A stretch of DNA of 64,000 nucleotides from contig JAVZGQ010000001.1 of NCBI GenBank assembly GCA_038998585.1, positions 75,737-139,736 of the forward strand, given 5' to 3'. The position numbers were made by a program, and so were the translations under genes. This stretch comes from Candidatus Aenigmatarchaeota archaeon. Lineage in GTDB: Archaea; Aenigmatarchaeota; Aenigmatarchaeia; CG10238-14; SCSR01. How positions within the stretch are numbered: position 1 is the first letter of the stretch; each line of letters starts with the position of its first letter. Positions 6,301 through 50,522 of this stretch are shown piece by piece. Below the pieces are notes generated by a model. That model ran no database searches. It was not told where the DNA came from and was given only the letters and a program-made list of their open reading frames with translations.

Positions 6301-8690
6301 GTTGTATCCAGTGTTTGTTCTGAAATGGGAAATGAAGAAGTTAAAGTATATTGAACTTGTGAATTACCCCCTAAATTATATGGAACTAATCTCACAAGCC
6401 AAATTCCGATATTCGGATTGTTGATAGAAACTTCTTCATAATTTTTGTCAACAGCATTGGAATAATTAGTTAGATGTCCTGTAGTGTTGTAAAGATAAAT
6501 ATCCAAATTGACTGTAGGTGAGTTCCAATCAAAGTTAACAATCAAAGGTTTAGAAGAAGTAGTAACATTAATTTTATGATACACTATTTGTGAGATGTTA
6601 TTAACTATAATATTTCTTTGGTCTGATATTTTGAAGTTAGAAGCTAGTGCGTAGACTTGGTTTCCAGATACATCATAAGGATCTACCAATAGTTTCCAGT
6701 TGCCTGATGGTGAAGGACTAGTGAGTTTTATCATCTCATCTGTATTTGGGGCTGATGTAGAATACGCTCTAACATTACCTGCAGGATCTAAAAGATACAA
6801 ATCAATATCATTGTGTAAACTGTAATTTTCAGGCCAGTAAAGCGTGGCCCTAATTTCTACACTTCCAGACGGAACAAAAATATTGTGCACCTTGTATGAT
6901 GAACCTATAGTGTCTTTTATAGTATTTGAAATTTCGCCAAAAGCTCTCTCTGCATTTATTCTACCGGCACCATAACTGTTATCCTTGCCAGTAGCACCTA
7001 AATCATTTGCAGAATTCATTAACAATGCTTTTAATTCTTCAGGTGTTATTGAAGGTCTGGCCTGTAAAATTAGCGCAGATAGCCCAGCAACATGTGGTGC
7101 TGAAGCGCTTGTTCCCTGAATATCTGTCCAGTTTAGATCACTTAAATAACCAGCATTTGTAGATGTTATTATTTGACCAGGGGCCATCAAATCTGGCTTG
7201 ATCCTACCATCCCTAGTAGGGCCACGGCTACTAAAACTGCTTAATCCATCATTCGTATGTCCTAACCACCAGTATTTGTTTGTTTGAGTAGACCCGACAG
7301 TTATAACTTTGTGCGCTAGGCCGGGTGAACATATCGAATAAGATGAGCCTGTAGAATCAAGCGAGGTTCGACAATTTGTATTACCATCTGGACCACTATT
7401 ACCAGCCGCTACAATTACTATTTTCCCCATGTCTACAACAGCATCGCTATAGGCAGATAAGGCATCACTTCCGTCATTTGTTTCATAACCTGCACCCAAA
7501 GACATTGAAAAAATATTAGCTCCGTTAGCTATGCACCAATCTATTCCAGAAATTACAGTAGAGGTGGTGCCTGGCAATACCTTTGCATTTAAGATTGATA
7601 CGCCAGGTGCTACACCTCTATATTTTAGGTCCGTGCTAGCTATAATCCCAGCAATATGTGTGCCATGTCCATTATAATCTCTTGGATCATTATCATTTGT
7701 GAAATCTTTCTCTAAAACAACTCTTGATGATAAAGCGGGGTGGGTTTTGTTAATTCCAGTGTCTAAAATACAAACTTTAATACCACTTCCATCATACCCA
7801 TTAGCCCAAAATATATTGGCATTTATCAAAGGGACCGATTTATCTAAAAGTGGTCTATATTCTTTTTCGATCCACACATTTTTAATAGATTTTATTTTTT
7901 CTAGCTTCGGGATTTCTGACTTGGAAATTATTGCAGATCGAAATCGGCTAAATCCAAATTCTTGCACATCACTAACTTGTAGATTTCTTATAGTAGAATA
8001 ATCATCATCTCTATCGATTTCTATTATTACTCTAATTTTTTCATTAGGCTGGGAATATATTTGAGGATCTATTTTTTCAATTTTTTTAGAAAGAGGTGAA
8101 ATTTCTTGGAATTTTTTTTTGATTAAAGATATTTTTTCCGCATCAAAATTCAGATTATTGATGATAAAACTCTGTTGGGCACTAGTCTCTTTATTTTCGG
8201 CTAAGGAGAGTGGTATTGTTAAGAAGAAACTTACAGTTATGAAAAGGCCGAACCACTTGATTTTTTTATTTAGGGCCCAAACCACTAGTATAATTATTGC
8301 TGCCAGTATTAAAACCATATACAAAAAATTTTGTGGCAACACAAATTCTTTGTAATTAGACTCGTTAGTTAGCGGTTCGTATTCTTTAATAGGTTTAATT
8401 TCTTTTATAAAATCTAAGTCTTGAAGTTTGCCCACATTTTGAGCAGAAATTTTTATTTCATACCAAGAAGCAACAGTAAAGTTTTTGACAATCGAAGCAT
8501 TTATTTCAGATAATTTTTGCATATCTGCAGAAGACAATGGTTTGTTTGTTATTATGATTACATCTATAATATCCTCAGACGATTTCGAGCTAAGTATTTT
8601 TATTAGTTCTGGGTCAATTTTTTGGGCAATAGCCGTGCTAGAGATAATTAAAAATACAAATATTATTGCACAAATGATTTTGATACTCAT
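3366..8690 (-). CDS. Giant membrane-anchored subtilisin-like serine protease (peptidase S8) with many Ig-like/beta-sandwich repeats
   Basis: Catalytic triad motifs are VCILDTGI (Asp), HGTHIAGIIAS (His) and GTSASAPHVAGLSALI (Ser). It has an N-terminal signal peptide and a C-terminal TM segment followed by a Lys-rich tail. N-x-S/T sequons are very frequent. A Cys-rich CDDG...DCGGPCLPC motif lies near the C-terminus. Confidence 0.85.
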   Translation of the reverse strand: MSIKIICAIIFVFLIISSTAIAQKIDPELIKILSSKSSEDIIDVIIITNKPLSSADMQKLSEINASIVKNFTVASWYEIKISAQNVGKLQDLDFIKEIKPIKEYEPLTNESNYKEFVLPQNFLYMVLILAAIIILVVWALNKKIKWFGLFITVSFFLTIPLSLAENKETSAQQSFIINNLNFDAEKISLIKKKFQEISPLSKKIEKIDPQIYSQPNEKIRVIIEIDRDDDYSTIRNLQVSDVQEFGFSRFRSAIISKSEIPKLEKIKSIKNVWIEKEYRPLLDKSVPLINANIFWANGYDGSGIKVCILDTGINKTHPALSSRVVLEKDFTNDNDPRDYNGHGTHIAGIIASTDLKYRGVAPGVSILNAKVLPGTTSTVISGIDWCIANGANIFSMSLGAGYETNDGSDALSAYSDAVVDMGKIVIVAAGNSGPDGNTNCRTSLDSTGSSYSICSPGLAHKVITVGSTQTNKYWWLGHTNDGLSSFSSRGPTRDGRIKPDLMAPGQIITSTNAGYLSDLNWTDIQGTSASAPHVAGLSALILQARPSITPEELKALLMNSANDLGATGKDNSYGAGRINAERAFGEISNTIKDTIGSSYKVHNIFVPSGSVEIRATLYWPENYSLHNDIDLYLLDPAGNVRAYSTSAPNTDEMIKLTSPSPSGNWKLLVDPYDVSGNQVYALASNFKISDQRNIIVNNISQIVYHKINVTTSSKPLIVNFDWNSPTVNLDIYLYNTTGHLTNYSNAVDKNYEEVSINNPNIGIWLVRLVPYNLGGNSQVQYTLTSSFPISEQTLDTTPPIVTLLEPLNISYNKQNISLKFNVIENIDKFVVCSGVIDDNSTSYWTVENDSVFISYFSVAEGAHKIYVNCSDGSNNIGSSSTVYFSIDLTPPIITFIPPSDQHDSIVNRSYILINVSVIDACDIDSCFLEWNGINISMTKIGSGNSVNCFINKSDVDGTYNYRVYANDSLNNFGNSSQRNITFDTIYPLIISYSPSDNSYILGTDSQTFVVNYTESNLDYIQLYWNETWPYNISNQPINLTGCSSGVYKTCSHNLNLSKYSENDRIVFYFGVFDKTGKSSYMMNPQNQPYNTIIHRTPPYYLSITQYPSDNPIYGQNVQLNSTWTDIAGVSKVFLESNHTGTYENYTALNQNSSYSYVISSSYLNGGKVVFWRFIASDNLNNWNVSMPYQNFTIQKSASSIKILINGSEDDEICEKGQLVNITATVNVSGKPIIIETNFTGSKIPTAYGVTTATNMTNTGNLILGAYNITAYFPGDENYTYSTQTRYLTVRDTTPPTIVNSEITPSIVKPNSNITFTATILDNDVVKYAYIVYYNSSWYPIQQQNLTNIENYWLSTFNLTEIPNGIYYFNVTAVDNSGNNKTVWANNITVNQTFGTINTFVNSSVFTLNNRAIVDAIQTTNVTLEIKTNQSVSNATIIMAAYTENPGTVNIGIPALNKYFEITTSHNLNISLSWAIIKVYYNDSDVPQAYSKRNLRIYYQNPDGSWNVYDGPLRGGSNTTANYVWANTTHFSIYGLYIMPTCDDGIQNQGESGIDCGGPCLPCPSPQPSGGAGGGGVLKRVETGFRSNSVNGLEISAGSSQILNINFSNGDINFYNISFDTKGLPKNWIKLNIYNFSVLGVGDVISLNITISVPPDSLTADYVLTVKASLVDENNKFRDYNYSIPVKVKGIQPAQITQKSKENITKENVTMPIPTQKETPNIPSGYTVLILTISNPATMSIIIIVGIFFFIFWKKLFASGKKNKKIFQIIDSKQE

Positions 8691-12307: not shown

Positions 12308-12414
12308 TGGGCCCCGTGGGATTTGAACCCACGACCAGTCCCAGTGAGTCCATCACTACTGGTTAAGAGCTTCAACCTCTTGTCAGCTGCTCTACCATGC
12401 TGAGCTAGGGGCCC
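12308..12414 (-). tRNA. tRNA-Lys(CUU) with two short non-canonical introns (about 13 nt at 30/31 and about 20 nt at 43/44)
   Basis: Minus strand: GGGCCCC TA GCTC AGCATGGTA GAGC A GCTG[ACAAGAGGTTGAA]G CTCTTAA CCAGT[AGTGATGGACTCACTGGGAC]TGGTC GTGGG TTCAAAT CCCAC GGGGCCC A. Both inserts sit in bulge-helix-bulge-like folds. The spliced arm parallels the neighbouring tRNA-Lys(UUU). Confidence 0.75.
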
Positions 12415-14568: not shown

Positions 14569-14679
14569 TGGGCCTACCGGGATTTGAACCCGGGACCAAC
14601 GGGTTTCTTTCATCTTTGAATCAAAGCTTTTAGCTTCAAGCTAAAAGCCCGCTGCTCTACCATGCTGAGCTATAGGCCC
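14569..14679 (-). tRNA. tRNA-Lys(UUU) with a canonical 37-nt intron at 37/38
   Basis: GGGCCTA TA GCTC AGCATGGTA GAGC A GCGGG CTTTTA[37 nt]A CCCGT TGGTC CCGGG TTCAAAT CCCGG TAGGCCC A. The central BHB helix CTTT/AAAG is flanked by 3-nt bulges. Confidence 0.9.
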
Positions 14680-17109: not shown

Positions 17110-20100
17110 ATGAGTTTTTTATCAAATAGAAGTGGTCTTATTAAGGTTGGGTTGTGGGGATTTGTGATTTTATCACTTTTCTTGTTTGGATTTTTTATTA
17201 ATACTTTTGTTTTCCCTTCACTTGCAGATGTTAATCCTGGGCAAGGCCCATATAGAAGTCCGGAGGGACAACTTGTTCCGGCATGGGTCAATTTATCGAG
17301 GGGTGATATGTTTTTTGCAAATGGCGACGAGGTTTTTATTGTCGTCAATATTAGTTGTTCTCCACCACATGTTTGTAATTCAAGCGCGTACATCGATGCT
17401 AATTTTTCTCAAATAGGTGGAAATGAAGTTAGAGCTGGCGTATTTAAGGAAAATGGAACAGATGGAAGTTGGGCTATTTTTGAAGTAAACGATACAGTTA
17501 ACTTTGCCAACCTGCCTTCTGGGTCAAGCATACTAATAGAACCTAAAAACATTACCTTTAACGCATCGGTTATTAACGATACTTCTGGCGAATATGAATA
17601 TTTTAATTTGCCCGATATATTTGCCACAGTAGTTTTGGTTAACATGTCTTATCCCTCAAGTTGTCCCCCTTCTGGCATTCCATTGCCACTACAAGTTCCT
17701 CTAAGAAATGGGACAATGGTAAGTATATCTGGTTGTGATGTTTGTGAACCAGACTATCATGATAGTGCAATATGGAATAGTACTCATTGGCTTATATGTG
17801 GTCCAGAGTTTGGGGGTGCCACAACTAACTTTACCGAATTAGCAAGAACAGGTAATTTCTCAAATTTTGCTTTAGTTCTTGATGTTCCCGGAAGGGGTAA
17901 AATTAACTTTACCCAAAATGTTAGTTTTGACACTCCAGAAAAGGCTATGTCAATATTTGATTTTGCTATTAAAAGTATAATGGGCAGTGGAAGAATAGGA
18001 ATGAATGAATCAGAATGGAATGGGACCTATACAAGACCAAATCTTAACTTGACAGCAAGGCTCACAATATACAATATTTCTAAGGGTTTGGGAATCACAG
18101 GGAGACCACAAATATTTAGATATCAACATAATTCTCCAGTAGGAATTCCCTGTCCCTCAGAAATATGTTCAGATTTTATTTTCGACGGAGAAAATATTAT
18201 TTTCACTGTATCGAGCTGGTCTGACTATGGTTTAAATGATGCAATAAATGTTACCTTGAGTGCCCCGGGTAACTTCACTTATGTTAATACACTTGACATA
18301 AACTTTACCTATATTCCAGAGTGGGACACATCTGTCACGATGGAAAACTGTACCTTATATGGGAATTTCAGCGGTACTTGGGAAGGGGTTCAGGGAAACC
18401 AGTCAGAACTAGTTAATGGAATAGCCAGCGGCATAAATTATAATGTAAATAACGATGGTGTTTACACATGGAACATTTATTGTTATGACACAACCAATCA
18501 ATATGATTTAGCAGAAGCTAATTGGACTGTAACTGTAGATACAGAAAAGCCACAATGGTCTAATAATCAATCCTGGTATCCAATAAATTACAATTCTTCT
18601 GCATCAATCTTTAACATCACTTGGACAGATGGTAATGGTATATCTACAGTCTTAATAGAAGGAAATTGGTCAGGAGAACAAAACTATAGTATGACCAACC
18701 TTGATGGAGGTGTATATAATTTTAATTCAACACTGCCCGCTGGAACTTTCTATTGGAAATCCTATGCAAGAGATTATGCAAATAACTGGAATGTTTCTGA
18801 CACTTGGTACTTTACCATTGAGCAAGCCACAACTTCATGCAATCTTATTTTTGATTCACCATCGCCACAAACTTATGGCACTCCCGTTACTGCTACCTGT
18901 TTTTGTACTAATCCAGAAGGAACAGCCAAGCTTTATAGAAATGAAACAGATGTTACTTCGACAGAGAATGGTACAGCAGTTGTACTACCAGCCGGTGTAT
19001 GGAACTATGTTTGCAATGTCACAGCTACACAAAATTACACTTCGACAAGCAATTCTTCAGATTATATAATAAACCAGGCTTTACCTTCTTTAAATTTAAT
19101 AATCTTGCCATCAAATTCAACAACCTACCCAACTGCAATAACAGCTTATGGTAGTTTTATTTTTGGAGATACGGGAGCAAACATAAGCTTGTATAGAAAT
19201 GACACTTTGGTTAATTCTTCTAATACTTTAACTTCTATTACTGAAACAATTTTGCTTGGTGCTGGAGTTTATAATTATACTCTTGTTTATGAAGAGACTC
19301 AAAACTACACTTCCGCTAGTTTGATGAACATGACTTTAGTAAACAAAGGAAACCCCAGCTCATATATTAATCTATACATAGACAATTCAACCGAAGATAA
19401 AGAAATTACCTATCCATCAATAGCCGAAATAAGGGGTAATGTTTCAAATATACAGGGGGCAGATGATTTGATATTTAATCTGTACAGGAACTCTGTACTA
19501 TTGGGTTCTGGGGATATAACAAGTCAAACTGTTGATTACACACAACTGGGGAATGCAACTTATGCCTTTGTTTACAATACAACAGGTGGAGCAAACTGGA
19601 CGTCCGGCTCATCTGTGACCAGACACTTGTACGTGTTGAAAGCAATATCAACCACCACTCTAATTATAACACCTTCCTCACCCATAACTTATGAGACTCT
19701 TTCTAATGTAAGTTGCAGCGATACAAATCCGGAGGCTGCAAGTAACTTATACAGAAATGGTAGTTTGGTTAATGAGGAGAATAATGTTAATTTTAGATTA
19801 CCAGCTGGAACTTGGGAGTATGTATGTAATGTTACAGAAACAGAGAATTACACTTTTGCAACAGATACAAAGATCTATGTTGTAAATAAAAAGGATGCAA
19901 ATATTCAGATCTCACCAACAACCCAGACAATTATCTACGGCAATCCCGTTGAGCAATATTGTATTGATGATTCTGATTTAGATTGTGTTCTTTACAGAAA
20001 CGGCACAATAATAACAAATGATACAACTGAGGTTCTAGCTGCCGGAGTTTATGTGTATATAGCAAACATTAGTGATAATGTAAACTATACTAATTATCAA

Positions 20101-21054
20101 GCCACAGAAACTTTAACAATAAATCGAGCCCCGACTTCAATAACCCTTTACTTAAACGGAACAGTGTGGACTTCAGATGTAGAAAAAGAATATCCAAATG
20201 CAACTAGTGTGAATGCTACAATAAATGTGTCTACATTACAAGATTTAGTGCTCTTAGAACTAAATAGTTCAGTTGTGGCAAATCCATATGAGATCTTACA
20301 TGATTTGGGAGTTTATAATTATACTGGAATTTTTGAAGGTAATCAAAACTATTCAGGAAGTTCTGTCACGAGGATGTTGACCATAAAGGATACAACACCA
20401 CCTTCTTTAGTCATAGGTATAACAAATAGCACAAACGGCAAATATCAACCAAGCTCTAGCCAAATAATTCAGGTTTTAGTTACAGACAACTACAAGACAG
20501 CCAACTCGGTGACATTAAATTATTACTTATCATCAAATCATACTTGGTTAACAGCTACAATGACAGGTACTCCTGGTACTACAACAATATATACAACAAC
20601 AATTGACACCTCTGAACTTGTGGATAATCAATTTGTCAAATATTATATAACTGGAGCTGATGATCAATCAAATGCTATAACCCCTTCAGTAGGAGGGAGC
20701 GCAAGCAATCCTAAGGCAAACATCACAATCGATTATTATTGTGGGAACAATGGTGTAGGACTGTCTTTCTGTAGCAGGGCTTACTTATATGACTGGAATT
20801 GGAGAAGTTTGTTCCTGCCTCCCAAGGTAGTAGTTGAGAGCTGGTCTTCACTTGGTGGGAATTATACAGTCCCAAAGGTCTTAGAGTCGATATCAGGCAA
20901 GTATAACTATGTATACTATCACAATGGCTCTCAGTGGACATCTTATGATCCTGCAGTCCCATTATCACAAAATGATTTGAAATATATGAATCAAACAAAC
21001 AGCAACCCATACTGGTTAAATATGACAGCTCCAGGAATCGTGAGAATACAGTAA
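17110..21054 (+). CDS. Large secreted, sequon-dense surface protein (1314 aa) with repeated Ig-like modules and no membrane anchor
   Basis: The N-terminal signal peptide ends ...FPSLA/DV. About five repeats of roughly 90-100 aa share LYRN...AG-Y-Y...NYT. My manual count finds about 70 N-x-S/T sequons. There is no C-terminal TM segment. Confidence 0.7.
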   Translation: MSFLSNRSGLIKVGLWGFVILSLFLFGFFINTFVFPSLADVNPGQGPYRSPEGQLVPAWVNLSRGDMFFANGDEVFIVVNISCSPPHVCNSSAYIDANFSQIGGNEVRAGVFKENGTDGSWAIFEVNDTVNFANLPSGSSILIEPKNITFNASVINDTSGEYEYFNLPDIFATVVLVNMSYPSSCPPSGIPLPLQVPLRNGTMVSISGCDVCEPDYHDSAIWNSTHWLICGPEFGGATTNFTELARTGNFSNFALVLDVPGRGKINFTQNVSFDTPEKAMSIFDFAIKSIMGSGRIGMNESEWNGTYTRPNLNLTARLTIYNISKGLGITGRPQIFRYQHNSPVGIPCPSEICSDFIFDGENIIFTVSSWSDYGLNDAINVTLSAPGNFTYVNTLDINFTYIPEWDTSVTMENCTLYGNFSGTWEGVQGNQSELVNGIASGINYNVNNDGVYTWNIYCYDTTNQYDLAEANWTVTVDTEKPQWSNNQSWYPINYNSSASIFNITWTDGNGISTVLIEGNWSGEQNYSMTNLDGGVYNFNSTLPAGTFYWKSYARDYANNWNVSDTWYFTIEQATTSCNLIFDSPSPQTYGTPVTATCFCTNPEGTAKLYRNETDVTSTENGTAVVLPAGVWNYVCNVTATQNYTSTSNSSDYIINQALPSLNLIILPSNSTTYPTAITAYGSFIFGDTGANISLYRNDTLVNSSNTLTSITETILLGAGVYNYTLVYEETQNYTSASLMNMTLVNKGNPSSYINLYIDNSTEDKEITYPSIAEIRGNVSNIQGADDLIFNLYRNSVLLGSGDITSQTVDYTQLGNATYAFVYNTTGGANWTSGSSVTRHLYVLKAISTTTLIITPSSPITYETLSNVSCSDTNPEAASNLYRNGSLVNEENNVNFRLPAGTWEYVCNVTETENYTFATDTKIYVVNKKDANIQISPTTQTIIYGNPVEQYCIDDSDLDCVLYRNGTIITNDTTEVLAAGVYVYIANISDNVNYTNYQATETLTINRAPTSITLYLNGTVWTSDVEKEYPNATSVNATINVSTLQDLVLLELNSSVVANPYEILHDLGVYNYTGIFEGNQNYSGSSVTRMLTIKDTTPPSLVIGITNSTNGKYQPSSSQIIQVLVTDNYKTANSVTLNYYLSSNHTWLTATMTGTPGTTTIYTTTIDTSELVDNQFVKYYITGADDQSNAITPSVGGSASNPKANITIDYYCGNNGVGLSFCSRAYLYDWNWRSLFLPPKVVVESWSSLGGNYTVPKVLESISGKYNYVYYHNGSQWTSYDPAVPLSQNDLKYMNQTNSNPYWLNMTAPGIVRIQ

Positions 21055-22424
21055 TGTTGGTGTATATGAATGAATTTAAAAAAATTGGAATTTTTTATTT
21101 TTTATTAACTTTACTTCCCCCATCATGTGTTCTTGCTCAAAGTTTGCCCGGCGATTGGAAAGGTTATGTTTTTATTGATGGTTCTATTGCTCCTGATGGC
21201 ACACCTGTCTCGGCAACAATAAATAATGTAGAGGTCGCCAGTACCACAGTAGGGGCAGTTGAATCGGGCACAGGTTATTATTTGATTCATGTGCCAGGCA
21301 ACACTGGAGACAAAGTTAAATTTAAAATATGTGGTGTAAATGTAACTCTTGAAGAACAGAGTTGGTCTGTAGGCCCACATCCAAATACTACCAGCGGTAG
21401 TCCTTACATTAATCTATCAATAACCACTTTAACAGATGGCTCTACTTGTACGTATGCTTGTGGATGTTCTGGAGGGTATTGTGTCCATGGCTATTGTAGG
21501 TCCAGCTCCGTCTACTGTGGAGATGGTTATTGTGACTCAGGCGAAACCTGTAGCAATTGTGCATCTGATTGTGGTAAATGTATGGAAAGAGCTGGGGCAG
21601 CGATGGTATTTCAAACAATTAATTCGGCTTCGCCCACATCACCGGCCGTTGTTAGCATCCCATCAGATAAGGCAAAAAGTTTAAAGATAGATGAAGTTAG
21701 AATAGAGGTAAAAGAAGATGTAACAAATCTCCAAGTAACAGTAAGGGAATCTTTTTTACCATCGTTTGCATCTCTGGCCATCACAACAGACAAAGGCGCA
21801 ACTTATAAGTACATCGAAATAACAACAAACCTAATAAATGAAAAAATTGAAAGGGTAAAAATTAAATTTAAAGTCGAGAAGTCTTGGTTGACGTCCAATG
21901 ACATAGATGAGTCAAAAGTTTCTTTGAACAGATGGTTTAATGGCCAATGGAATAAATTAACAACAACAAAAATAGGTGAAGATTCAACTTATGTTTATTA
22001 CGAGGCAGAATCCCCCGGTCTATCAGTTTTTGCAATTACAGGAGAAAAGAAATCAGCTATAGTAGTAAAACAACCCTGTCCATTTGAGTGCTGTATAGGA
22101 GAGGTAAACTATAATGATAAAGTCTGTCAATTTGGGTATGAGTGTAAAAATAGAGTGTGTGTAGCAATAACTCTAGCATGTAATTGTACTAATTGGAGCA
22201 ATATCGGTTGTGGAGCTCAATCTTGTGAAGAAAATGAAATGAAGCAAATTAGGAGTTGTACACCAGCTGCTTGTGACTCAGAAGAGAGATGTGTAATAGA
22301 TCCAAGTTGTAGAGCAGCAGTGTCTCCTTCTTTGGTATTGGCAATAACAACTGTAGTAATAATTGCAATAATTTCGGTCTTGCTTTTTACTCTAAAACAT
22401 AGAATGAATTTTCGCAAAGAGTAG
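21054..22424 (+). CDS. Secreted Cys-rich protein with a PGF-pre-PGF-like beta-sandwich and a C-terminal TM anchor (456 aa)
   Basis: The start overlaps the upstream stop (TAATG). It has a signal peptide and the motif CGDGYCDSGETCSNCASDCGKC. The segment KIKFKVEKSWLTSNDIDESKVSLNRWFNGQWNKLTT...YVYYEAESPGLSVFAI resembles the archaeal PGF-pre-PGF domain. A terminal TM segment is followed by a basic tail. Confidence 0.65.
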   Translation: MLVYMNEFKKIGIFYFLLTLLPPSCVLAQSLPGDWKGYVFIDGSIAPDGTPVSATINNVEVASTTVGAVESGTGYYLIHVPGNTGDKVKFKICGVNVTLEEQSWSVGPHPNTTSGSPYINLSITTLTDGSTCTYACGCSGGYCVHGYCRSSSVYCGDGYCDSGETCSNCASDCGKCMERAGAAMVFQTINSASPTSPAVVSIPSDKAKSLKIDEVRIEVKEDVTNLQVTVRESFLPSFASLAITTDKGATYKYIEITTNLINEKIERVKIKFKVEKSWLTSNDIDESKVSLNRWFNGQWNKLTTTKIGEDSTYVYYEAESPGLSVFAITGEKKSAIVVKQPCPFECCIGEVNYNDKVCQFGYECKNRVCVAITLACNCTNWSNIGCGAQSCEENEMKQIRSCTPAACDSEERCVIDPSCRAAVSPSLVLAITTVVIIAIISVLLFTLKHRMNFRKE

Positions 22425-22445
22425 TTGGCTTGGTGTATAATTCTT

Positions 22446-23198
22446 ATGATTGATGTTCATTGTCATCTTGAGCAACGGGATTACGATTCTGATAGAGATG
22501 AAGTTATAGAGAAGTGTAAGCAGGAACTCAAGGCTGTAATCACCTCATGTGCTCGCCCCAAAGATTTGGATCTCACCATGCAGCTAGTGGAAAAACACAG
22601 GGGATTTGTTTTTGCCACCGTTGGGATTCACCCACAATATATAAAAAAAATAAATGAAAAAGAGAAAGAAGAATTCTTTGAGATTGTAAGAAAAAATAAA
22701 GATAAGATAGTTGGTATAGGTGAGGTTGGTCTCGATTTCCTCATAGAGGAAACAGAGTGGAGAGAAAAACAGAAAGAATTGTTCTCCGACTTCATATCCT
22801 TGTCAAATGAATTGAAAAAACCTTTGATAATCCATGCCAGAAAAGCTTTCGATGAAGCGATCGAGATTCTAGATGCCCAAAAAGCAAAAAATGTTTTAAT
22901 GCATTTCTTTTCAGCAAAAGAGCTTTTAGATAGAGTGATAGAAAACGGTTGGTACATTTCCGTGAACACCACCCTTCTCACAAGCAAGAATATAAAAAAG
23001 ATTGTAAGGGATATGCCTATAGAGAGGATTCTCACAGAAACAGATTCGCCATGGCTTGGAAGTGAAGGGAAGAGAAATGACCCGCGCTCAATAAAACTTG
23101 TCATTCAAAGGATTTCTGAAATAAAAAAGGTTGGATTGGAAGAGATAGATAAGCTGACTACAGAAAATGCTATTAAGTTTTTTGACCTTAAAGTTTAA
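22446..23198 (+). CDS. tatD: TatD-family metal-dependent hydrolase/DNase
   Basis: MIDVHCHLEQRDY...GEVGLDF...IIHAR...TETDSPWL are the TatD motifs. I prefer ATG 22446 over the TTG at 22425. Confidence 0.8.
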   Translation: MIDVHCHLEQRDYDSDRDEVIEKCKQELKAVITSCARPKDLDLTMQLVEKHRGFVFATVGIHPQYIKKINEKEKEEFFEIVRKNKDKIVGIGEVGLDFLIEETEWREKQKELFSDFISLSNELKKPLIIHARKAFDEAIEILDAQKAKNVLMHFFSAKELLDRVIENGWYISVNTTLLTSKNIKKIVRDMPIERILTETDSPWLGSEGKRNDPRSIKLVIQRISEIKKVGLEEIDKLTTENAIKFFDLKV

Positions 23199-23651: not shown

Positions 23652-24866
23652 CTATATTTTGTACCTTAGAAAGGCCCCAATACCACCAAGCTCCTTGAAT
23701 TGTATTCCTTCACTTGTTTCAGTTGAAATATATTCAACCTTTGTCCCTAAAGAAGAAGCTTTTTCTACAAGCTCATCCACAAGATCACAGCTCTCTTCTA
23801 CAATCAGTTTTTGCCCACAATTTGGGCACTTTTGCTTTTCAATCAAAAATTTCAGTAGATTTTTTTCTTCAGAAAAGCCACAAATGCATCTGAACTTAAC
23901 ACGGACCCAACTAAAATCTTCTGATACGAGCAATACATCAACAGCGCCCGCTTCCAAAGCCTTTTTTGTTTCTTCGAGCCCATAAACTACATTCCCGTTG
24001 TTTTTCAGTTCGATGAAAAATTTTTGCATAAGATTTCTTTCCTTAGAAATAATGGCTTCTTTCAATAAATCTTGAGATTTAAAAACAAGTTCTTCTAAAC
24101 CATATTCATCAGTCGACCCAATATCCTTAACGCCCAATACCTTATTTTGAATTTGATAATGTAAGTATTTTTTATCATAAAAAATTTCTTTGACAGGGCC
24201 AGGACCACCTATTATAACACCTTTCAAATTTTCTTGTTTGATAAAAAGATTAGAAGCCTCTTCACCCACTTTGACTAAAAATTCATTCAAGGCATCATCT
24301 CTAAGCCTGTCATATCTTTTCTGGCTCATACCTCCTTTAACTGTTTTGCTAGGAACAGTAGATTCCATAGTTTTCAATTTTTCTGTTCTCTTTCCTTTCA
24401 GTAGACCTATTGTCGCTTCTTTGGCATCCAAAACTATCAGACCATAAACCTCTTTTTCAGATATTAAATCTCTAAGAGGATCAAGCACAAAATTTTGATC
24501 ACACCAATAAATTCTTTGGGAAATTGGAATAGGTGGTTCGTAGCTCCAAAGTTTTATGTCTTCCTTTCCCTCAATTTCAGACACATTTCCACAAAATATA
24601 ACAAGCCCATTATCAGGAGTTTTCTTGAAGAGCTTCAAATGTTGCAGAATCTTTTCTAAAGCAGTCAAGACATTTTTTCTTGTTGTTTTGCTTTTTATAT
24701 TTGAAGCAGTGCCTTTTTCTTGGAAGATTTGATTTGAGGCTTCTATTAAATTGTAGCCAGCGGGAACATAAACACTAATTAATTCTGTGTGTCTTCCCTT
24801 TATTTTTTCCAGTTCTTTTATCAGTTTCTTAAGCCTCAGCTTTTCTTCCTCTTTTATTTCAACCAT
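23652..24866 (-). CDS. prf1: Peptide chain release factor aRF1 homologue with GGM in place of GGQ
   Basis: NIKS (GTASNIKSKTTRKNV), YxCxxxF (YWCDQNF) and the overall eRF1 layout are present. The M-domain motif reads KGGMSQKRYDRLR. I prefer ATG 24866, preceded by AGGTG, over the GTG at 24875. Confidence 0.8.
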   Translation of the reverse strand: MVEIKEEEKLRLKKLIKELEKIKGRHTELISVYVPAGYNLIEASNQIFQEKGTASNIKSKTTRKNVLTALEKILQHLKLFKKTPDNGLVIFCGNVSEIEGKEDIKLWSYEPPIPISQRIYWCDQNFVLDPLRDLISEKEVYGLIVLDAKEATIGLLKGKRTEKLKTMESTVPSKTVKGGMSQKRYDRLRDDALNEFLVKVGEEASNLFIKQENLKGVIIGGPGPVKEIFYDKKYLHYQIQNKVLGVKDIGSTDEYGLEELVFKSQDLLKEAIISKERNLMQKFFIELKNNGNVVYGLEETKKALEAGAVDVLLVSEDFSWVRVKFRCICGFSEEKNLLKFLIEKQKCPNCGQKLIVEESCDLVDELVEKASSLGTKVEYISTETSEGIQFKELGGIGAFLRYKI

Positions 24867-24927
24867 CTTAAACACCTTTCAATAAAAATTCTAAATGGTC
24901 AAATAAAAACTTATATAAGTAGGGGAG

Positions 24928-27258
24928 TCAGTTCTTAATATTGTGCATCACTTTCAAGTCTTTCTCAAAAATCTTAAGCTCTTCAGGGATTTCAAATTCA
25001 ATTTCATCTTTAAGAGAAAGACCTTTCTCTTTCTTCAAGTTCCAAACCTTGGAGTTGAACTCAACAATTTTTTCACTCAGTTTTGTTAGCTCAGTCCTCC
25101 ATTCAGCTCTGGGGAAGATTTGTGTATGGATCGATTTTTTACCATAAAGCTCTAACCATATCTTTTCTGTGATGAATGGGGTTATTGGAGCAAGCAGGAG
25201 CAAAATATTTTTCAGGCAAGTATGTAAAGTGAACCAAGCGGCTTGCTGCTCTTTTTTGTTGAATCCTTGCCCGTAAGCCCTAGGTTTAACCATTTCTATA
25301 TAGTGGGAAGCAAAAAGATTCCAAGTGAATTCTCTAATTTTTGTTGCTGGAATAAAGAAATTGAAATCTTTATATCCCTTTAGGCAATCTTTTATCAACA
25401 TGTTCAATTCGGCCAAAATCCATTCATCTGTTTTACTAAGATTTGCTTTTTTTGGTCGTGGGAAAGAAGAAATAAACCTTGCTATATTCCACAGCTTTGT
25501 CAAGAATTTTGAAGCCGAGGCAATTTTTTCTTCTGAACATCTGAAGTCGTAACCCAAGCTAACCTCAGAAGCATTCCAAAATCTAAAATTGTCGGCCCCA
25601 TACTTTTTCAGAATTGGTAAGGGGTCGATGACATTGCCCTTGCTTTTGCTCATCCTTTCCCCCTTTTCATCCAAACCATATCCCATTATCCAAGCATGTT
25701 TCCAAGCCACTTTTCCTGTAAGCTGGTAGCATCTTAGCAAAGTGTAGTAGAGCCAAGTTCTTACTATGTCTTTTGCTTGTGGCCTTAAGCCGTTCGGAAA
25801 AGTTTTCTTGAAAAATTCTTCATCTCTTAAAAACTTTGAAATGAACAAAGGAGTAATGCTTGAGTCAAACCAAGTGTCAAAAGTCCTGCTCTCACCCTCA
25901 AATTCCTCCCCACCACAATACTTACATTTATTGAAAGGAGGCTTTTCTCTCCAAGGTCGATAATACTTTCCGGGCTTTGGTAAGTTTGGTTTACCACATT
26001 TTTTACAGTACCAAACAGGGACTTCAGTCCCATAAAATCTCCTTCTTGAAATCGGCCAATCTATTGTGATAGAATCAATCCAATTGTATAAGATTTGTCT
26101 ATGCATCTCTGGATGGAATACTATCTTTTCAGCAATCCTTTTTATGTCTTTCAAGAAAGGCAATTGTTTGAGATAAAATTCGTCTAAAGAAATAATTTCT
26201 ATTGGTGTTTTGCCTCTCTCATAAAATGGAGTACGGTGCATTATAGTTTCCTCTTTTTCAATCAAACCTAATGTTTTTAAATCTTCAATAATTTTTTTCC
26301 TTGCTTCATTGACTTCAAGTCCAGCATACTTGCCAGCATTTTCATTCATCTTTCCGTCCAAGTCAATTGCCATTATCTCTTTCAAACCAAGCTCTCTGAA
26401 AAGCCTTACATCCGTGGTGTCACCATAGCTACAAACCATCACTATTCCTGAACCAAATTCAGATTTTGCGGCGGGATGTGAGAGAATAGGGACTTCTCTA
26501 TTATATATAGGCAATAAGGCCCTTTTTCCGGGTAAATCTTTATATCTTTCATCTTTAGGATGTACGAGAATCGCCTGGCAAGAGCAAATTAACTCTGGCC
26601 TTGTTGTTGCTATTGTTATGTATCTGTCTTCGTCAACAAGCTTGAATTTGATATAAACGAGTCGGGTTGATATCTCTTCATAAATGATATCAGCATCGGC
26701 TATTGTTGTCTTACAGTCAGGGCAATAGTTGTTTGGTCTTGTTGATCGGTATATCAACCCCCTTTCCCATAACATTAGGAAAGTTTCTTGTGTGAGCTTC
26801 CTATATTCTTCTGAGTCTGTTCTATAACAATTGTCAAAATCTGCACTTAACCCCATCATTTTCATTATCTCTATAAGCTTAGCTTCTAAATCGTCCAGGG
26901 CAGTTTTTGCTATTTCGATGAATTTTTCTCTAGGAGTTTCATGCATTTTTATGTTGTATTTTCTTTCAACATACCTTTCGACCGGCACACCATTTCTATC
27001 AATTCCTATAGGGAAGAAAACCTCAAACCCCAGCATTCTTGCAGTTCTTGCCGTCATGTCTATTTGCGAATAGTGGGCTGCAGCCCCAATGTGCCACACT
27101 GCCCCCGATGGATATGGGGGTGGGGTGTCTATTGAAAAAATCTTTTTAGTAGTTTTTGGGTTGAAAGAAAAAATCTTTTTTTTCTTCCACTGCTCAAACA
27201 AATCTTTCTCAATTCCTATATCCCATCTTTTTTCCTTTATTTTTGGTTTAAACTGCAT
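24928..27258 (-). CDS. valS: Valine--tRNA ligase (class I, archaeal type)
   Basis: Motifs seen are IDTPPPYPSG..WHIGAAAHYSQIDM, ATTRPELICSCQAILVHP (editing domain) and KMSKSKGNVIDP. An isoleucyl or leucyl enzyme is less likely on these motifs. Confidence 0.65.
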   Translation of the reverse strand: MQFKPKIKEKRWDIGIEKDLFEQWKKKKIFSFNPKTTKKIFSIDTPPPYPSGAVWHIGAAAHYSQIDMTARTARMLGFEVFFPIGIDRNGVPVERYVERKYNIKMHETPREKFIEIAKTALDDLEAKLIEIMKMMGLSADFDNCYRTDSEEYRKLTQETFLMLWERGLIYRSTRPNNYCPDCKTTIADADIIYEEISTRLVYIKFKLVDEDRYITIATTRPELICSCQAILVHPKDERYKDLPGKRALLPIYNREVPILSHPAAKSEFGSGIVMVCSYGDTTDVRLFRELGLKEIMAIDLDGKMNENAGKYAGLEVNEARKKIIEDLKTLGLIEKEETIMHRTPFYERGKTPIEIISLDEFYLKQLPFLKDIKRIAEKIVFHPEMHRQILYNWIDSITIDWPISRRRFYGTEVPVWYCKKCGKPNLPKPGKYYRPWREKPPFNKCKYCGGEEFEGESRTFDTWFDSSITPLFISKFLRDEEFFKKTFPNGLRPQAKDIVRTWLYYTLLRCYQLTGKVAWKHAWIMGYGLDEKGERMSKSKGNVIDPLPILKKYGADNFRFWNASEVSLGYDFRCSEEKIASASKFLTKLWNIARFISSFPRPKKANLSKTDEWILAELNMLIKDCLKGYKDFNFFIPATKIREFTWNLFASHYIEMVKPRAYGQGFNKKEQQAAWFTLHTCLKNILLLLAPITPFITEKIWLELYGKKSIHTQIFPRAEWRTELTKLSEKIVEFNSKVWNLKKEKGLSLKDEIEFEIPEELKIFEKDLKVMHNIKN

Positions 27259-27631
27259 TCCATCCACACCTCTCAATTAAAATTAATTTTAAGGATAGAA
27301 GTAGATAAAAGTCAAACTTGTACCCGACGACCACCCTTCATTTACCTCAAAATATTTTTTGTATCTTTCATAATTTAAATCTTTATCTTAGACTCATTTC
27401 TAAGTTAATAATCTTTATGAACTGATCCTAGGTCTAGATCAATTGATGGTAGATATCTATAACTGGAAGAGGAAAATAGAAAGAGAATTGGTAAGGATAT
27501 GAAGCACTTAAGAGTCTTTGAATAAAATCTTTAAATGGTTAGATACAATATTATTATAGCCTTGCTTAGAAGCCTCTGTTAAGCGATGAGTCAAGCAAGC
27601 AAGGAAACAGATGCACGAGGCAAGGCCGCAC

Positions 27632-31369: not shown

Positions 31370-31468
31370 TGGACCGGCCGGGATTTGAACCCGGAGCCTC
31401 CACCTTTTTCTATTAGGTATGCGAAGGTGGTTTTAGGGTATTCTGTCCTACCTTTAGACCACCGGCCC
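31370..31468 (-). tRNA. tRNA-Ala(CGC) with two micro-introns (13 nt at 25/26, 14 nt at 37/38)
   Basis: GGGCCGG TG GTCT AAAGGTA GGAC[AGAATACCCTAAA]A CCACC TTCGCA[TACCTAATAGAAAA]A GGTGG AGGCT CCGGG TTCAAAT CCCGG CCGGTCC A. The G3:U70 Ala identity pair is present. The first intron has a perfect BHB (central helix TAGG/CCTA, bulges ACA and AAA). Confidence 0.8.
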
Positions 31469-31775
31469 TTTATTGAATTTAACTCTTCTTGAAATATTTT
31501 ATATAGTCATTGTGTTTTAACTCTTAATATAAAATAGTACTTTTTTTATAGTTTGAAAAATTTACAAATGAAAATAAAATACAAATTTGTGATTGTAATT
31601 TTTGAAATCTTATTTAAGGAAATTCCAAACCCATTCATTTATTAAGTTTTTATTTAATTTCTGTTTAACACTTCCCTGCTGAAGAGATGATTTGTTTTTA
31701 CTCTATCGTTGTTTGTTGTCCTCATTTCTCAATAAAACATAAGTAAAAATAAGGATAAATTAAAATCTATAAAGT

Positions 31776-31850
31776 GGGCACGTAGCTTAGCCTGGTTGGA
31801 GCAACCGGCTGATAACCGGTAGGTCCCCGGTTCAAATCCGGGCGTGCCCA
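31776..31850 (+). tRNA. tRNA-Ile(GAU), intron-less
   Basis: GGGCACG TA GCTT AGCCTGGTTG GAGC A ACCGG CTGATAA CCGGT AGGTC CCCGG TTCAAAT CCGGG CGTGCCC A. Confidence 0.9.
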
Positions 31851-31915
31851 TTTGGAAATCGATAAAACAAAAAAGAAAAAGTATTTAAGTAATTGGCTAT
31901 TATTAAAAAATACCC

Positions 31916-36403: not shown

Positions 36404-36503
36404 GCGGGGGTCCGGTAGTCCGGTCAATCCGGCCAGCCTGAGGAGAAAGCAGATCGCTGGTGGCTTAGTGCCTACGTGGGTTCGAATCCCACCCCCCGCA
36501 CCA
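36404..36503 (+). tRNA. tRNA-Leu(GAG), class II, with an approximately 11-nt micro-intron in the anticodon loop and a genomically encoded CCA
   Basis: GCGGGGG ... CCAGC CTGAGG[AGAAAGCAGAT]C GCTGG TGGCTTAGTGCCTAC GTGGG TTCGAAT CCCAC CCCCCGC A CCA. It has a long variable arm. It is the only tRNA here with an encoded CCA. Confidence 0.8.
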
Positions 36504-49943: not shown

Positions 49944-50522
49944 ATGGTAAGCTTTGTCATCGGTATCACGGGAACAATAGGTTCTGGAAAAGAAGTTGTG
50001 AAAGAAATTTTGATCAAAAATTTCAGCTGCTATTCAGTTTCTCTTTCTTCAGTCATTCAATCCCAACTAAAGAATAAAGCTGATAGAAAAACTCTACAAG
50101 ATATGGGCAACGAGTTGAGAAAAAAATACGGGAGTTTCATTCTAGCCAAACTTGCTACGGATTACTTGCAAAGAGATAAAGAAATGATTATAGTTTATGG
50201 AATAAGAAATCCTGGTGAAGTTGATTACTTGAGAAAAACTTTTGGCAATAAATTTTTCTTGATAGCTGTAGATGCTCCTCGTGAACTAAGATGGGAAAGG
50301 ATAAAAAACATGGCAAGAGAGGGTGACCCAAAAGCTTGGGACGAGTTTGTGGTTGTTGATGAAAGAGATCAGGGTGTGGGAGAGGGATTAGAAGGACAGC
50401 AAGTGAGAAGATGTATCGATATGGCGGATATGCTTATTAGGAATGACGGTGATATAAATCAACTCAATGAAAAAATTGATAAGTTCATAAATTTCTTAAA
50501 GACAAAAAGATCTGATTTATGA
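49944..50522 (+). CDS. P-loop nucleotide kinase, UPF0200 / dephospho-CoA-kinase-like family
   Basis: IGITGTIGSGKEVV, YGIRNPGEVDYLRK and ERDQGVGEGL resemble the archaeal UPF0200 family. Confidence 0.55.
   Translation: MVSFVIGITGTIGSGKEVVKEILIKNFSCYSVSLSSVIQSQLKNKADRKTLQDMGNELRKKYGSFILAKLATDYLQRDKEMIIVYGIRNPGEVDYLRKTFGNKFFLIAVDAPRELRWERIKNMAREGDPKAWDEFVVVDERDQGVGEGLEGQQVRRCIDMADMLIRNDGDINQLNEKIDKFINFLKTKRSDL

What the first reader, a model, noticed from the sequence alone, without database searches (positions are those of the whole stretch)
24321..24335. aRF1 homologue has the universal GGQ catalytic motif replaced by GGM
The ORF is a clear aRF1/eRF1 homologue. Its stop-codon-recognition motifs are intact: NIKS (GTASNIKSKTTRKNV) and YxCxxxF (YWCDQNF). 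Class-I release factors carry GGQ at the catalytic site (archaeal pattern GGQSxxRFxRLR). Here the translation reads KGGMSQKRYDRLR, and the minus-strand codons gga ggt atg agc cag are directly visible. The Gln of GGQ positions the hydrolytic water, and its substitution abolishes peptidyl-tRNA hydrolysis in studied factors. There are three explanations: a base-call error, a decoding-competent but non-hydrolytic paralogue with a rescue or regulatory role, or lineage-specific termination chemistry. TAA, TAG and TGA all terminate confident genes in this window, so a stop-codon reassignment is not evident.
Basis: partly seen in the sequence, partly recalled or inferred. Interest (0 to 1): 0.7.

Follow-up and report, generated by a model that had tools for sequence, protein, structure and literature searches.

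The report
Archaeal release factor lacking catalytic glutamine
The organism's ordinary translation-termination factor (aRF1) really does carry Gly-Gly-Met where textbooks say Gly-Gly-Gln is universal, and this is a conserved feature of a large branch of Aenigmatarchaeota, almost always paired with a new glutamine two residues downstream, so nature has run the test of whether that glutamine is needed.

Summary
Window 23652-24875 (-) encodes a full-length aRF1 (TIGR03676, 474 bits). Codons 24335-24321 read G-G-M-S-Q, and the Met aligns without gaps to the Gln of GGQ in solved aRF1/eRF1.

It is not a base-call error. All 120 closest database homologues (58-100% identity) lack Gln there: 115 GGM, 3 GGF, 1 GGW, 1 GGY.

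Genomes titled Aenigmatarchaeota split into a GGQ clade and a sister clade with GGW, GGF, GGY or GGM.

The gene is the positional orthologue of canonical aRF1. The valS-aRF1-TatD neighbourhood is shared by GGQ, GGW and GGM genomes. I found no second aRF1, but whole genomes could not be scanned.

In 156 non-Gln sequences Lys-6, Gly-2, Gly-1, Ser+1 and Arg+4 are invariant and there are no indels. That is unlike catalytically dead relatives.

Gln at +2 occurs in 143/156 non-Gln factors against 25/250 GGQ factors. It accompanies 7 of 8 conservatively counted independent losses. This gives a GGxSQ motif, previously described only for VLRF1-type families.

Best reading: an active release factor whose catalysis rests on the backbone NH plus hydrophobic packing, helped by Gln+2. 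About 8% of non-Gln factors have no loop Gln at all. I found no prior report.

The parts
23652..24875 (-). aRF1 gene (407-aa ORF from GTG at 24875; the probable start is the ATG at 24866, giving 404 aa = P0001; TAG stop)
   Evidence: Pfam eRF1_1/2/3, TIGR03676 474 bits. AF2 model pLDDT 89.5 with TM 0.80 to eRF1 in 5lzt.
24327..24335 (-). [quoted passage not shown]
   Evidence: Gly-Gly invariant and the position-0 residue is M/W/F/Y in the whole clade.
24321..24326 (-). Ser+1 and Gln+2 (AGC CAG). Gln+2 is the residue that co-varies with loss of the canonical Gln, and it is the first residue of the long M-domain helix in the model.
24300..24317 (-). RYDRLR, the basic helix start after the loop (Arg+4 invariant; Tyr+5 instead of the usual Phe)
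24690..24713 (-). GTAS-NIKS stop-codon recognition segment
24489..24509 (-). YWCDQNF (YxCxxxF) stop-codon recognition motif
23661..23687 (-). C-terminal GGIGAFLRY (GILRY-type motif)
   Evidence: Aligned to 'ggigGILRY' of eRF1. PMC2613156 links the GILRY motif to eRF1-eRF3 interaction.
23814..23888 (-). C-domain insertion with CxC...CxxC cysteines (CICG ... CPNCG), the a/eRF1-specific mini-domain
   Evidence: C327, C347 and C350 nearly invariant in A3.
24928..27276 (-). valS (valine-tRNA ligase) immediately upstream on the same strand; the conserved partner that marks the locus as the canonical aRF1 position
   Evidence: NF009687 929.6 bits, cut-off 738; synteny.
22425..23198 (+). TatD-family hydrolase, convergent downstream neighbour, also part of the conserved neighbourhood

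Best explanation
This is the organism's ordinary, orthologous class-I release factor. It still enters the peptidyl-transferase centre and triggers peptidyl-tRNA hydrolysis. The canonical Gln was replaced in an ancestor of a large Aenigmatarchaeota sub-clade by a hydrophobic residue: Trp appears basal, later Phe, Tyr and Met. Proposed mechanism (inferred): the two glycines still give the backbone conformation that places the main-chain NH of residue 0 next to the ester. Residue 0 (Met here) supplies the packing that the N5-methylated Gln side chain normally supplies. The Gln that appeared at +2, giving a GGxSQ loop as described for aVLRF-1/acVLRF-1, takes over or assists the polar, water-orienting role. 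Because Gln+2 has S at -1 and D at +4, it does not fit the G-Q-X3-R context preferred by the Mtq2/HEMK2 methyltransferase. The change may therefore free the lineage from Gln methylation. Shown: the substitution, its conservation, positional orthology, the invariance of the rest of the loop, and the Gln0/Gln+2 covariation. Inferred: retained hydrolysis, the division of labour between residue 0 and Gln+2, sole-copy status, and loss of methylation.
For: (1) Real and clade-wide. All 120 best homologues are GGM (115), GGF (3), GGW (1) or GGY (1). Among GTDB species genomes there are 12 GGM and 18 GGW loci, including a complete chromosome CP070804.1 with GGW and a 791-kb contig with GGM. (2) Orthology. 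valS lies directly upstream on the same strand and TatD lies downstream in GGM, GGW and GGQ loci alike, including the GGQ chromosome CP066684.1 and Woese-/Parvarchaeota genomes. (3) No second copy was found: none in the 64-kb window, one aRF1-like ORF in each of loci L001-L080, no assembly listed twice among the 80 best loci, and none of the 120 best GGQ/GGW-type clusters sits on the 690-938-kb contigs that carry GGM aRF1. The one suspicious length match (22,536 bp) proved to be two different records. (4) The catalytic loop is under full constraint. In 156 dereplicated non-Gln sequences K-6, G-2, G-1, S+1 and R+4 are 156/156 and there are no gaps. Catalytically dead relatives lose the Gln together with loop conservation and length (PMC6514570; PMC2613156). 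(5) Covariation. Gln+2 occurs in 143/156 non-Gln against 25/250 GGQ sequences. It is the strongest discriminating column after position 0 (TV 0.82). It is present in 7 of 8 conservatively counted independent origins. The script gave binomial P = 1e-9 (background 0.1) to 9e-7 (background 0.2) for the less conservative count of 10 of 11. For 7 of 8 my own arithmetic gives about 7e-7 to 8e-5. GGQSQ intermediates exist, e.g. L050 KGGQSQMRFQRVR next to P0046 KGGFSQMRFQRVR. (6) Biochemical plausibility: the main-chain NH is critical, the side chain has a packing role, and Gln->Glu is active (PMC4691834; PMC6742477). (7) A GGxSQ motif is reported for aVLRF-1/acVLRF-1 (PMC6514570). (8) The model has the aRF1/eRF1 fold, with GGMS in the loop and Gln+2 starting the helix.
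Against: No biochemical data exist for any of these proteins. Whole genomes could not be scanned, so a divergent second aRF1, or another hydrolase, is not excluded. Thirteen of 156 non-Gln sequences (GGMSA, GGMSS, GGWSA, GGSSA) have no Gln at +2, so Gln+2 cannot be strictly required. The tree is neighbour-joining without support values and has very short internal branches, so the number and direction of changes are approximate. Presence or absence of Mtq2/Trm112 was not testable. In vivo, Gln substitutions in model organisms are reported as deleterious (own knowledge of Mora et al. 2003, which is cited but not read here).
Confidence: 0.72

Rival explanations
1. Decoding-competent but hydrolysis-deficient factor. 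The GGM/GGW aRF1 recognises stop codons and, with ABCE1, splits the ribosome. The ester bond is then cut by another enzyme, such as an aVLRF-1/Vms1-like or Pth-like hydrolase acting on the 50S-peptidyl-tRNA complex.
For: Met, Trp and Phe cannot hydrogen-bond a water molecule as the Gln carbonyl does (chemistry; PMC5799190). Some lineages have no Gln in the loop at all. Archaea possess VLRF1-type hydrolases according to PMC6514570. The window encodes a stand-alone NFACT-R (RqcH C-terminal-like) protein at 1546-2184, which hints at ribosome quality-control machinery.
Against: Gly-Gly, Ser+1, Arg+4 and the loop length are invariant in all 156 non-Gln sequences. That is hard to explain if the loop no longer works in the peptidyl-transferase centre. 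Dead relatives let this loop decay. No VLRF1-like or second eRF1-fold gene lies in the window or in loci L001-L080. The recurrent gain of Gln+2 argues for maintained chemistry.
Confidence: 0.1
2. A non-hydrolytic paralogue with a rescue or regulatory role, coexisting with a canonical GGQ aRF1 encoded elsewhere in the genome.
For: Only 64 kb of a 140-kb contig is in hand. The tools could not scan whole genomes. aRF1 paralogues exist in some archaea and ciliates (PMC2613156).
Against: The gene occupies the conserved valS-aRF1-TatD position of the canonical gene. It scores twice the aRF1 equivalog cut-off and well below the pelota cut-off. The decoding motifs are intact. No assembly yielded two loci among the 80 best. 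No GGQ-type cluster shares a contig with a GGM-type cluster, although GGM genes sit on contigs of 690-938 kb, which is about the length of the two complete chromosomes seen here, 742 and 875 kb.
Confidence: 0.07
3. Sequencing or assembly error at the Met codon.
For: None beyond the rarity of the motif.
Against: The same residue occurs in 115 independent cluster representatives from NCBI, JGI, ENA and Logan assemblies, and related residues (W/F/Y) occur in sister lineages. CAA/CAG to ATG needs two base changes.
Confidence: 0.005

Closest known systems
Canonical archaeal/eukaryotic class-I release factor aRF1/eRF1 (TIGR03676; PDB 4af1, 3agk, 1dt9, 5lzt)
   Same: Three-domain architecture and fold. 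GTS/NIKS and YxCxxxF decoding motifs. GILRY-type C terminus. Gly-Gly, Ser+1, Arg+4 and loop length. Genomic position next to valS.
   Different: Gln of GGQ is replaced by Met (Trp, Phe or Tyr in relatives). Ala/Ser+2 is replaced by Gln. Phe+5 is mostly Tyr. The Gln that Mtq2 methylates is absent.
aVLRF-1 / acVLRF-1 families of the aeRF-1 superfamily (Burroughs & Aravind 2019, PMC6514570; Pfam PF18859, NCBIfam NF041024)
   Same: The catalytic-loop motif is written GGxSQ, which is the pattern found here (GGMSQ). The M domain gives sub-threshold matches to these models.
   Different: Those are rescue and quality-control hydrolases without the stop-codon-reading N domain. Here the motif sits in a bona fide stop-codon-decoding aRF1. 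Scores are below the family cut-off (34.8 vs 125). I could not check that the two motifs align in register.
Pelota/Dom34 and Gln-less baeRF-1 families
   Same: eRF1-fold M and C domains without the catalytic Gln.
   Different: Those lack NIKS/YxCxxxF and Gly-Gly and have a degenerate, length-variable loop. Here everything except the Gln is strictly conserved. The pelota model scores 88 against a cut-off of 177.65.
Engineered Gln mutants of bacterial RF1/RF2 and human eRF1 (Shaw & Green 2007; Seit-Nebi 2000/2001; Santos 2013, as summarised in PMC4691834 and PMC2613156)
   Same: A class-I release factor with a non-Gln residue at the GGQ position. The literature indicates partial activity unless the residue is Pro.
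   Different: Those are laboratory mutants, generally unfit in vivo. This is a natural state, fixed and maintained by purifying selection across a large clade, with an accompanying second-site change.

Membership tests
aRF1/eRF1 (class-I release factor, TIGR03676) | Three domains eRF1_1, eRF1_2 and eRF1_3 in order, full length | tested here: met
   (all three Pfam domains end to end). (474.2 bits vs cut-off 234.7). (fold, TM 0.80 to 5lzt eRF1).
aRF1/eRF1 (class-I release factor, TIGR03676) | Stop-codon recognition motifs GTS, NIKS and YxCxxxF | tested here: met
   GTAS-NIKS at aa 55-62 and YWCDQNF at aa 123-129.
aRF1/eRF1 (class-I release factor, TIGR03676) | [quoted passage not shown] | tested here: not met
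   GGM at aa 181-183, aligned gaplessly to GGQ. Gly-Gly retained, Gln absent. This is the defining feature that fails, so I call it a variant aRF1 rather than a textbook member.
aRF1/eRF1 (class-I release factor, TIGR03676) | C-terminal GILRY-type motif for the GTPase partner | tested here: met
   GGIGAFLRY at aa 397-405.
aRF1/eRF1 (class-I release factor, TIGR03676) | Orthology: the same genomic position as canonical aRF1 in related genomes | tested here: met
   The valS-aRF1-TatD neighbourhood is shared by GGQ, GGW and GGM loci.
aRF1/eRF1 (class-I release factor, TIGR03676) | Only aRF1 in the genome | tested here: inconclusive
   No second copy in the window, in any locus, or on shared contigs, but no whole genome could be scanned.
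aRF1/eRF1 (class-I release factor, TIGR03676) | Stop-codon-dependent peptidyl-tRNA hydrolysis on the ribosome | not testable with these tools
   Needs a release assay.
Pelota/Dom34 (TIGR00111) | Sm-like N domain, no NIKS/YxCxxxF, degenerate M-domain loop | tested here: not met
   eRF1_1 N domain with NIKS is present. The pelota model scores 88.2 against cut-off 177.65 and matches only aa 144-407.
aVLRF-1 / acVLRF-1 (PF18859, NF041024) | GGxSQ catalytic-loop motif | tested here: met
   GGMSQ. The motif definition is from PMC6514570. Register with true family members was not checked.
aVLRF-1 / acVLRF-1 (PF18859, NF041024) | Family-level sequence match and VLRF1 architecture (no stop-codon-reading N domain) | tested here: not met
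   NF041024 scores 34.8 against cut-off 125. The PF18859 hit is much weaker than the overlapping eRF1_2 hit (42 vs 141 bits). An N domain with NIKS is present.
Substrate of Mtq2/HEMK2-Trm112 Gln methyltransferase | Gln in a G-Q-X3-R context | tested here: not met
   Position 0 is Met. Gln185 has Ser at -1 and Asp at +4. Whether the genome still encodes Mtq2 was not testable.

The most novel reading that the evidence does not exclude
A large archaeal lineage terminates all of its protein synthesis with a release factor that has no Gln at the 'universal' GGQ position, and in some sub-lineages has no Gln anywhere in the loop. A hydrophobic Met, Trp or Phe plugs the catalytic pocket in place of N5-methyl-Gln. 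A GGxSQ configuration has evolved repeatedly as an alternative catalytic loop. The Mtq2 methylation step has become dispensable. That would be in-vivo proof that the Gln side chain is not required for ribosomal peptide release, and it would define a second natural solution to termination chemistry.
Probability: 0.5. Interest if true: 0.9.

Novelty: new variant of a known kind. Interest (0 to 1): 0.8.

Why it matters
GGQ is described in the literature read here as universally conserved in class-I release factors of all domains of life (PMC5799190, PMC2613156, PMC6144793). The role of its Gln side chain, whether catalysis, packing or water selection, and the reason it is methylated in all three domains have been argued from mutants for about 25 years.

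A natural, strongly conserved GG[MWFY]SQ series gives a ready-made evolutionary experiment. It has visible intermediates (GGQSQ), possible reversions (GGQSA nested among GGW) and Gln-free end states (GGMSA). These states can be transplanted into tractable aRF1/eRF1 systems and solved on ribosomes.

There are also practical consequences. Annotation or 'activity' calls that rely on the presence of GGQ would misjudge these proteins. Motif-based inference that Gln-less eRF1-fold proteins are catalytically dead should be applied with care.

Tried and rejected
- Base-call error: rejected by conservation.
- Gln+2 as a strict one-for-one replacement: rejected as an absolute rule, because 13/156 non-Gln sequences lack it. 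Kept as an assisting or permissive change.
- Register shift by an indel: rejected. Loop length and Arg+4 spacing are unchanged.
- Second aRF1 or pelota in the window: phmmer --max and tblastn found nothing.
- Shared-contig test for paralogy: two contig-length coincidences turned up. The 22,536-bp match was resolved as different records, each with a single aRF1. The 2,871-bp match comes from different sources and is too short to be informative.
- Hunt for Mtq2. A motif scan (D/ExGxGxG ... NPPY/F/W) over the window's predicted genes and all locus ORFs gave only three NPPF methyltransferases, all in GGQ genomes. I judged them not to be Mtq2 from the motif alone, without further testing. An 'MTS'-annotated 137-aa gene near aRF1 in L081 has no NPPY motif. 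No usable seed for a database search was found, so Mtq2/Trm112 presence remains untested.
- Cluster look-up for taxon names of the scattered non-Gln singletons returned no organism names.
- Papers PMC2175178 (Shaw & Green) and PMC60236 (Seit-Nebi) are not held, so their content is cited only through other papers. The supplement of PMC6514570 is not held, so the register of GGxSQ in VLRF1 families could not be checked.
- Model coordinates are not exposed, so side-chain geometry of Met183 and Gln185 could not be measured.
Full report
**1. The observation**

The ORF at window 23652-24875 on the minus strand encodes 407 aa from a GTG. The database gene call P0001 starts at the ATG at 24866 and gives 404 aa. 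Bases 24335-24321 of the minus strand read GGA GGT ATG AGC CAG, which is G181-G182-M183-S184-Q185.

The protein matches Pfam eRF1_1, eRF1_2 and eRF1_3 end to end. It scores 474.2 bits against the NCBIfam aRF1 equivalog TIGR03676 (cut-off 234.7). The pelota model reaches only 88 bits against a cut-off of 177.65.

GTAS-NIKS, YWCDQNF and the C-terminal GGIGAFLRY are all present. In HMMER alignments to the solved archaeal aRF1 4af1 and to human eRF1, 'kggmsqkrydrlr' pairs column by column with 'kggqsaqrfarlr' and 'rggqsalrfarlr'. The Met therefore occupies exactly the Gln position and the loop length is unchanged.

**2. It is not an error and not a singleton**

A search of about 5.8 billion clustered proteins returned 3,701 relatives. 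All 120 best (58-100% identity; NCBI, JGI, ENA and Logan assemblies) have a non-Gln residue at this column: 115 GGM, 3 GGF, 1 GGW and 1 GGY. Where a source names them, they are 'Candidatus Aenigmatarchaeota archaeon'.

An exhaustive HMMER search of 1.84 billion 50%-identity representatives shows GGQ returning as identity falls to about 50%. Further scattered non-Gln forms (GGW, GGF, GGA, GGE, GGS) appear there too.

A scan of one genome per GTDB species gave 80 loci from 80 different assemblies. Genomes titled Aenigmatarchaeota carry GGQ (e.g. the complete chromosome CP066684.1), GGW (e.g. the complete chromosome CP070804.1) or GGM. Among the 80 loci, those titled Woesearchaeota, Pacearchaeota, Nanoarchaeia, Parvarchaeota, Nanohaloarchaea, Undinarchaeota/Undinarchaeales, Thermococcus and Methanomicrobia all carry GGQ. 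So do single MAGs titled Methanosarcinales and Thorarchaeota.

**3. Orthologue or paralogue?**

In the window the gene lies about 50 bp downstream of valS on the same strand (NF009687, 929.6 bits). A convergent TatD hydrolase follows.

The same valS-aRF1 pair, usually with TatD nearby, is found in three groups of loci:
- GGM loci: L017, L024, L030, L032, L033, L038, L041, L048, L049, L056, L082, L083.
- GGW loci: L019, L042, L070, L072.
- GGQ loci: L001-L003, L005, L007, L008, L010-L012, L034, L039, L047, L053, L055, L057, L068, L079, L081.

The GGM gene is thus the positional orthologue of canonical aRF1.

No other eRF1-fold gene exists in the 64-kb window (phmmer --max and tblastn), and each of loci L001-L080 holds exactly one.

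A profile built from 20 GGQ-type Aenigmatarchaeota aRF1s retrieved 120 best clusters: 110 GGQ, 9 GGW and 1 with an intein. None of them sits on the large contigs that carry GGM aRF1 (938,630; 840,504; 783,396; 769,412; 757,503; 690,605 bp and others). The only meaningful length coincidence (22,536 bp) turned out to be two unrelated records, each with one aRF1 in the usual neighbourhood.

Sole-copy status is therefore well supported but not proven, because no tool could read a whole genome.

**4. Anatomy of the variant loop**

I aligned 471 aRF1 sequences to one HMM and dereplicated them to 406: 250 with Gln at position 0 and 156 without (M 109, W 35, F 7, A 2, Y 1, S 1, E 1).

In all 156 non-Gln sequences Lys-6, Gly-2, Gly-1, Ser+1 and Arg+4 are invariant, and there is not a single gap from -9 to +12. 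This contrasts sharply with catalytically inactive eRF1-fold proteins. In Pelota/Dom34 and most baeRF-1 families the Gln is lost together with sequence conservation and loop-length constraint (PMC6514570; PMC2613156).

An AlphaFold2 model (pLDDT 89.5) reproduces the aRF1/eRF1 fold. Its best TM-score is 0.80, to eRF1 in the eRF3-bound termination complex 5lzt. [quoted passage not shown]

**5. The second-site change**

The column that best separates Gln from non-Gln factors, after position 0 itself, is +2 (total-variation distance 0.82; other columns reach at most 0.71). Gln+2 is present in 143 of 156 non-Gln sequences but only 25 of 250 GGQ sequences, where Ala or Ser is the rule.

On a neighbour-joining tree the non-Gln state forms one large clade of 151 leaves. 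GGW is basal, then GGF, GGY and GGM, with a GGM crown of 103. This clade is sister to a 122-leaf GGQ Aenigmatarchaeota clade. At least seven further small lineages lie elsewhere in the archaeal tree: P0266 GGESQ, P0172 GGWSQ, P0247/P0259 GGASQ, P0151/P0271 GGFSQ, P0169/P0210 GGF/WSQ, P0251 GGWSQ and P0195 GGSSA.

Counting conservatively, 7 of 8 independent origins carry Gln+2. My arithmetic for this gives binomial P of about 7e-7 at the observed 10% background and about 8e-5 at 20%. The script computed 1e-9 and 9e-7 for the less conservative count of 10 of 11.

Double-Gln sequences (GGQSQ) exist as plausible intermediates. L050 KGGQSQMRFQRVR differs from P0046 KGGFSQMRFQRVR only at position 0 across this 13-residue loop segment. 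Two small GGQSA groups (L025, and the L028 group) nest inside the GGW clade. If the topology holds, these would be coordinated reversions, but the internal branches are very short and unsupported.

Tyr replaces Phe at +5 in 132 of 156 non-Gln sequences, against 15% of GGQ sequences. This is suggestive, but it lies within the range of clade-specific background differences.

[quoted passage not shown] I could not check the register against real members because the supplement is not held.

Gln+2 is not obligatory. GGMSA, GGMSS, GGWSA and GGSSA sequences (13 of 156) have no Gln in the loop at all.

**6. Mechanism (inferred)**

The literature read here says the following:
- The two glycines adopt a conformation only glycine allows.
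- The side chain provides packing that selects water as the nucleophile, and a Gln->Glu mutant retains reasonable activity.
- N5-methylation raises kcat about 10-fold for RF2 by improving positioning (PMC4691834; PMC6742477; PMC5799190).

Given the fully conserved Gly-Gly, Ser+1 and Arg+4 and the fixed loop length, the most economical reading is that the loop still docks in the peptidyl-transferase centre. The backbone NH of Met183 does the essential job. The hydrophobic side chain supplies the packing normally given by methyl-Gln. Gln185 adds or replaces the polar contact.

Archaeal aRF1 is methylated on the GGQ Gln by Mtq2 (PMC6144793), and the enzyme prefers G-Q-X3-R (PMC10804810). Gln185 has Ser at -1 and Asp at +4, so it does not fit that context. 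The substitution may therefore have made methylation unnecessary, which would be attractive for reduced DPANN genomes. This is a hypothesis: I found no Mtq2 seed and could not test presence or absence.

**7. Rivals**

- A hydrolysis-deficient factor whose peptidyl-tRNA is cleaved later by another enzyme remains possible (about 0.1). It does not explain the strict conservation of the loop.
- A non-hydrolytic paralogue beside a canonical copy (about 0.07) conflicts with positional orthology and with the absence of any co-located GGQ gene.
- A sequencing error is excluded.

**8. Comparison with what is known, and novelty**

The protein works like an aRF1, and by every test except one it is an aRF1. 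The one failed feature is the motif that the literature calls universally conserved.

Full-text searches combining GGQ with DPANN, Aenigmarchaeota/Aenigmatarchaeota, metagenome-assembled genomes or archaeal release factors found no report of such variants. The only co-occurrence was an abbreviation list in PMC6514570. The library omits most subscription journals, so prior description cannot be excluded.

I class it as a new variant of a known kind and score it 0.8. A specialist in translation termination would be surprised, and the natural allelic series makes the long-running question of what the Gln side chain and its methylation are for directly testable.

Noticed in passing
Related proteins, not the window: P0006, P0034, P0095, P0099, P0121-P0238 and others: 63 of 68 long (>480 aa) aRF1 homologues carry a class-1 intein (Cys1 ... 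His-Asn | Ser+1) inserted exactly between position 0 of the GGQ/GGM/GGW/GGF motif and Ser+1. Both mini-inteins (134-161 aa) and inteins of 271-577 aa occur, the largest being long enough to carry a homing-endonuclease domain (not checked). Some proteins have a second insertion elsewhere. The invariant Ser+1 doubles as the splicing nucleophile.
   Followed up: partly
Related proteins P0042, P0054, P0061, P0065, P0067, P0077, P0080, P0087 (938,630-bp contig), P0088, P0094, P0101, P0106: A GGM sub-clade has SLAQ-NVKD-K instead of GTAS-NIKS-K and YRCDQ instead of YWCDQ. Both the GTS loop and NIKS are altered. Such changes accompany altered stop-codon specificity in ciliates, so stop-codon usage in those genomes deserves a look.
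   Followed up: no
L050 (9986-11179), L065, L077; L025 and L028; P0370, P0374, P0351, P0337: GGQSQ double-Gln forms look like evolutionary intermediates. Two small GGQSA groups nest inside the GGW clade on the NJ tree, which may be coordinated reversions at positions 0 and +2. There are no support values.
   Followed up: partly
window 1546-2184 (+): A 212-aa protein consisting only of an NFACT-R domain. It matches the C-terminal third (profile positions 440-638 of 645) of archaeal RqcH at 162 bits, below the 400-bit cut-off. It is either a stand-alone ribosome quality-control RNA-binding module or a split gene.
   Followed up: no
window 12308-12414, 14569-14679, 31370-31468, 36404-36500, 62438-62534: Rfam finds five tRNA matches of 97-111 nt that ARAGORN (bacterial settings) misses. 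The extra length suggests intron-containing archaeal tRNA genes. Only tRNA-Ile(GAT) at 31775-31851 is found by both tools.
   Followed up: no
window 3366-8690 (-), 17110-21054 (+), 21054-22424 (+): A 1,774-aa subtilase with bacterial Ig-like domains, a 1,314-aa ORF with no Pfam hit, and an adjacent 456-aa PGF-pre-PGF domain protein. These are large, presumably surface proteins.
   Followed up: no
L033 (CAZPZA010000026.1) and L065 (JBHLQZ010000122.1): The record titles say 'uncultured Gammaproteobacteria bacterium' and 'Candidatus Thorarchaeota archaeon', yet the contigs carry Aenigmatarchaeota-type aRF1 (GGMSQ and GGQSQ). L033 also has the upstream valS; L065 shows only TatD. These are probably binning or labelling errors.
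   Followed up: no
window 50517-51797 (-): A 426-aa ORF with two Thy1 (ThyX) stretches, about twice the length of the 191-position Thy1 profile.
   Followed up: no
Position +5 of the loop (window 24312-24314, Tyr188): Phe+5 of RFxR is Tyr in 132 of 156 non-Gln aRF1 but in only 15% of GGQ aRF1, and it is Tyr in several of the independent non-Gln lineages. It may be a third co-varying site.
   Followed up: partly
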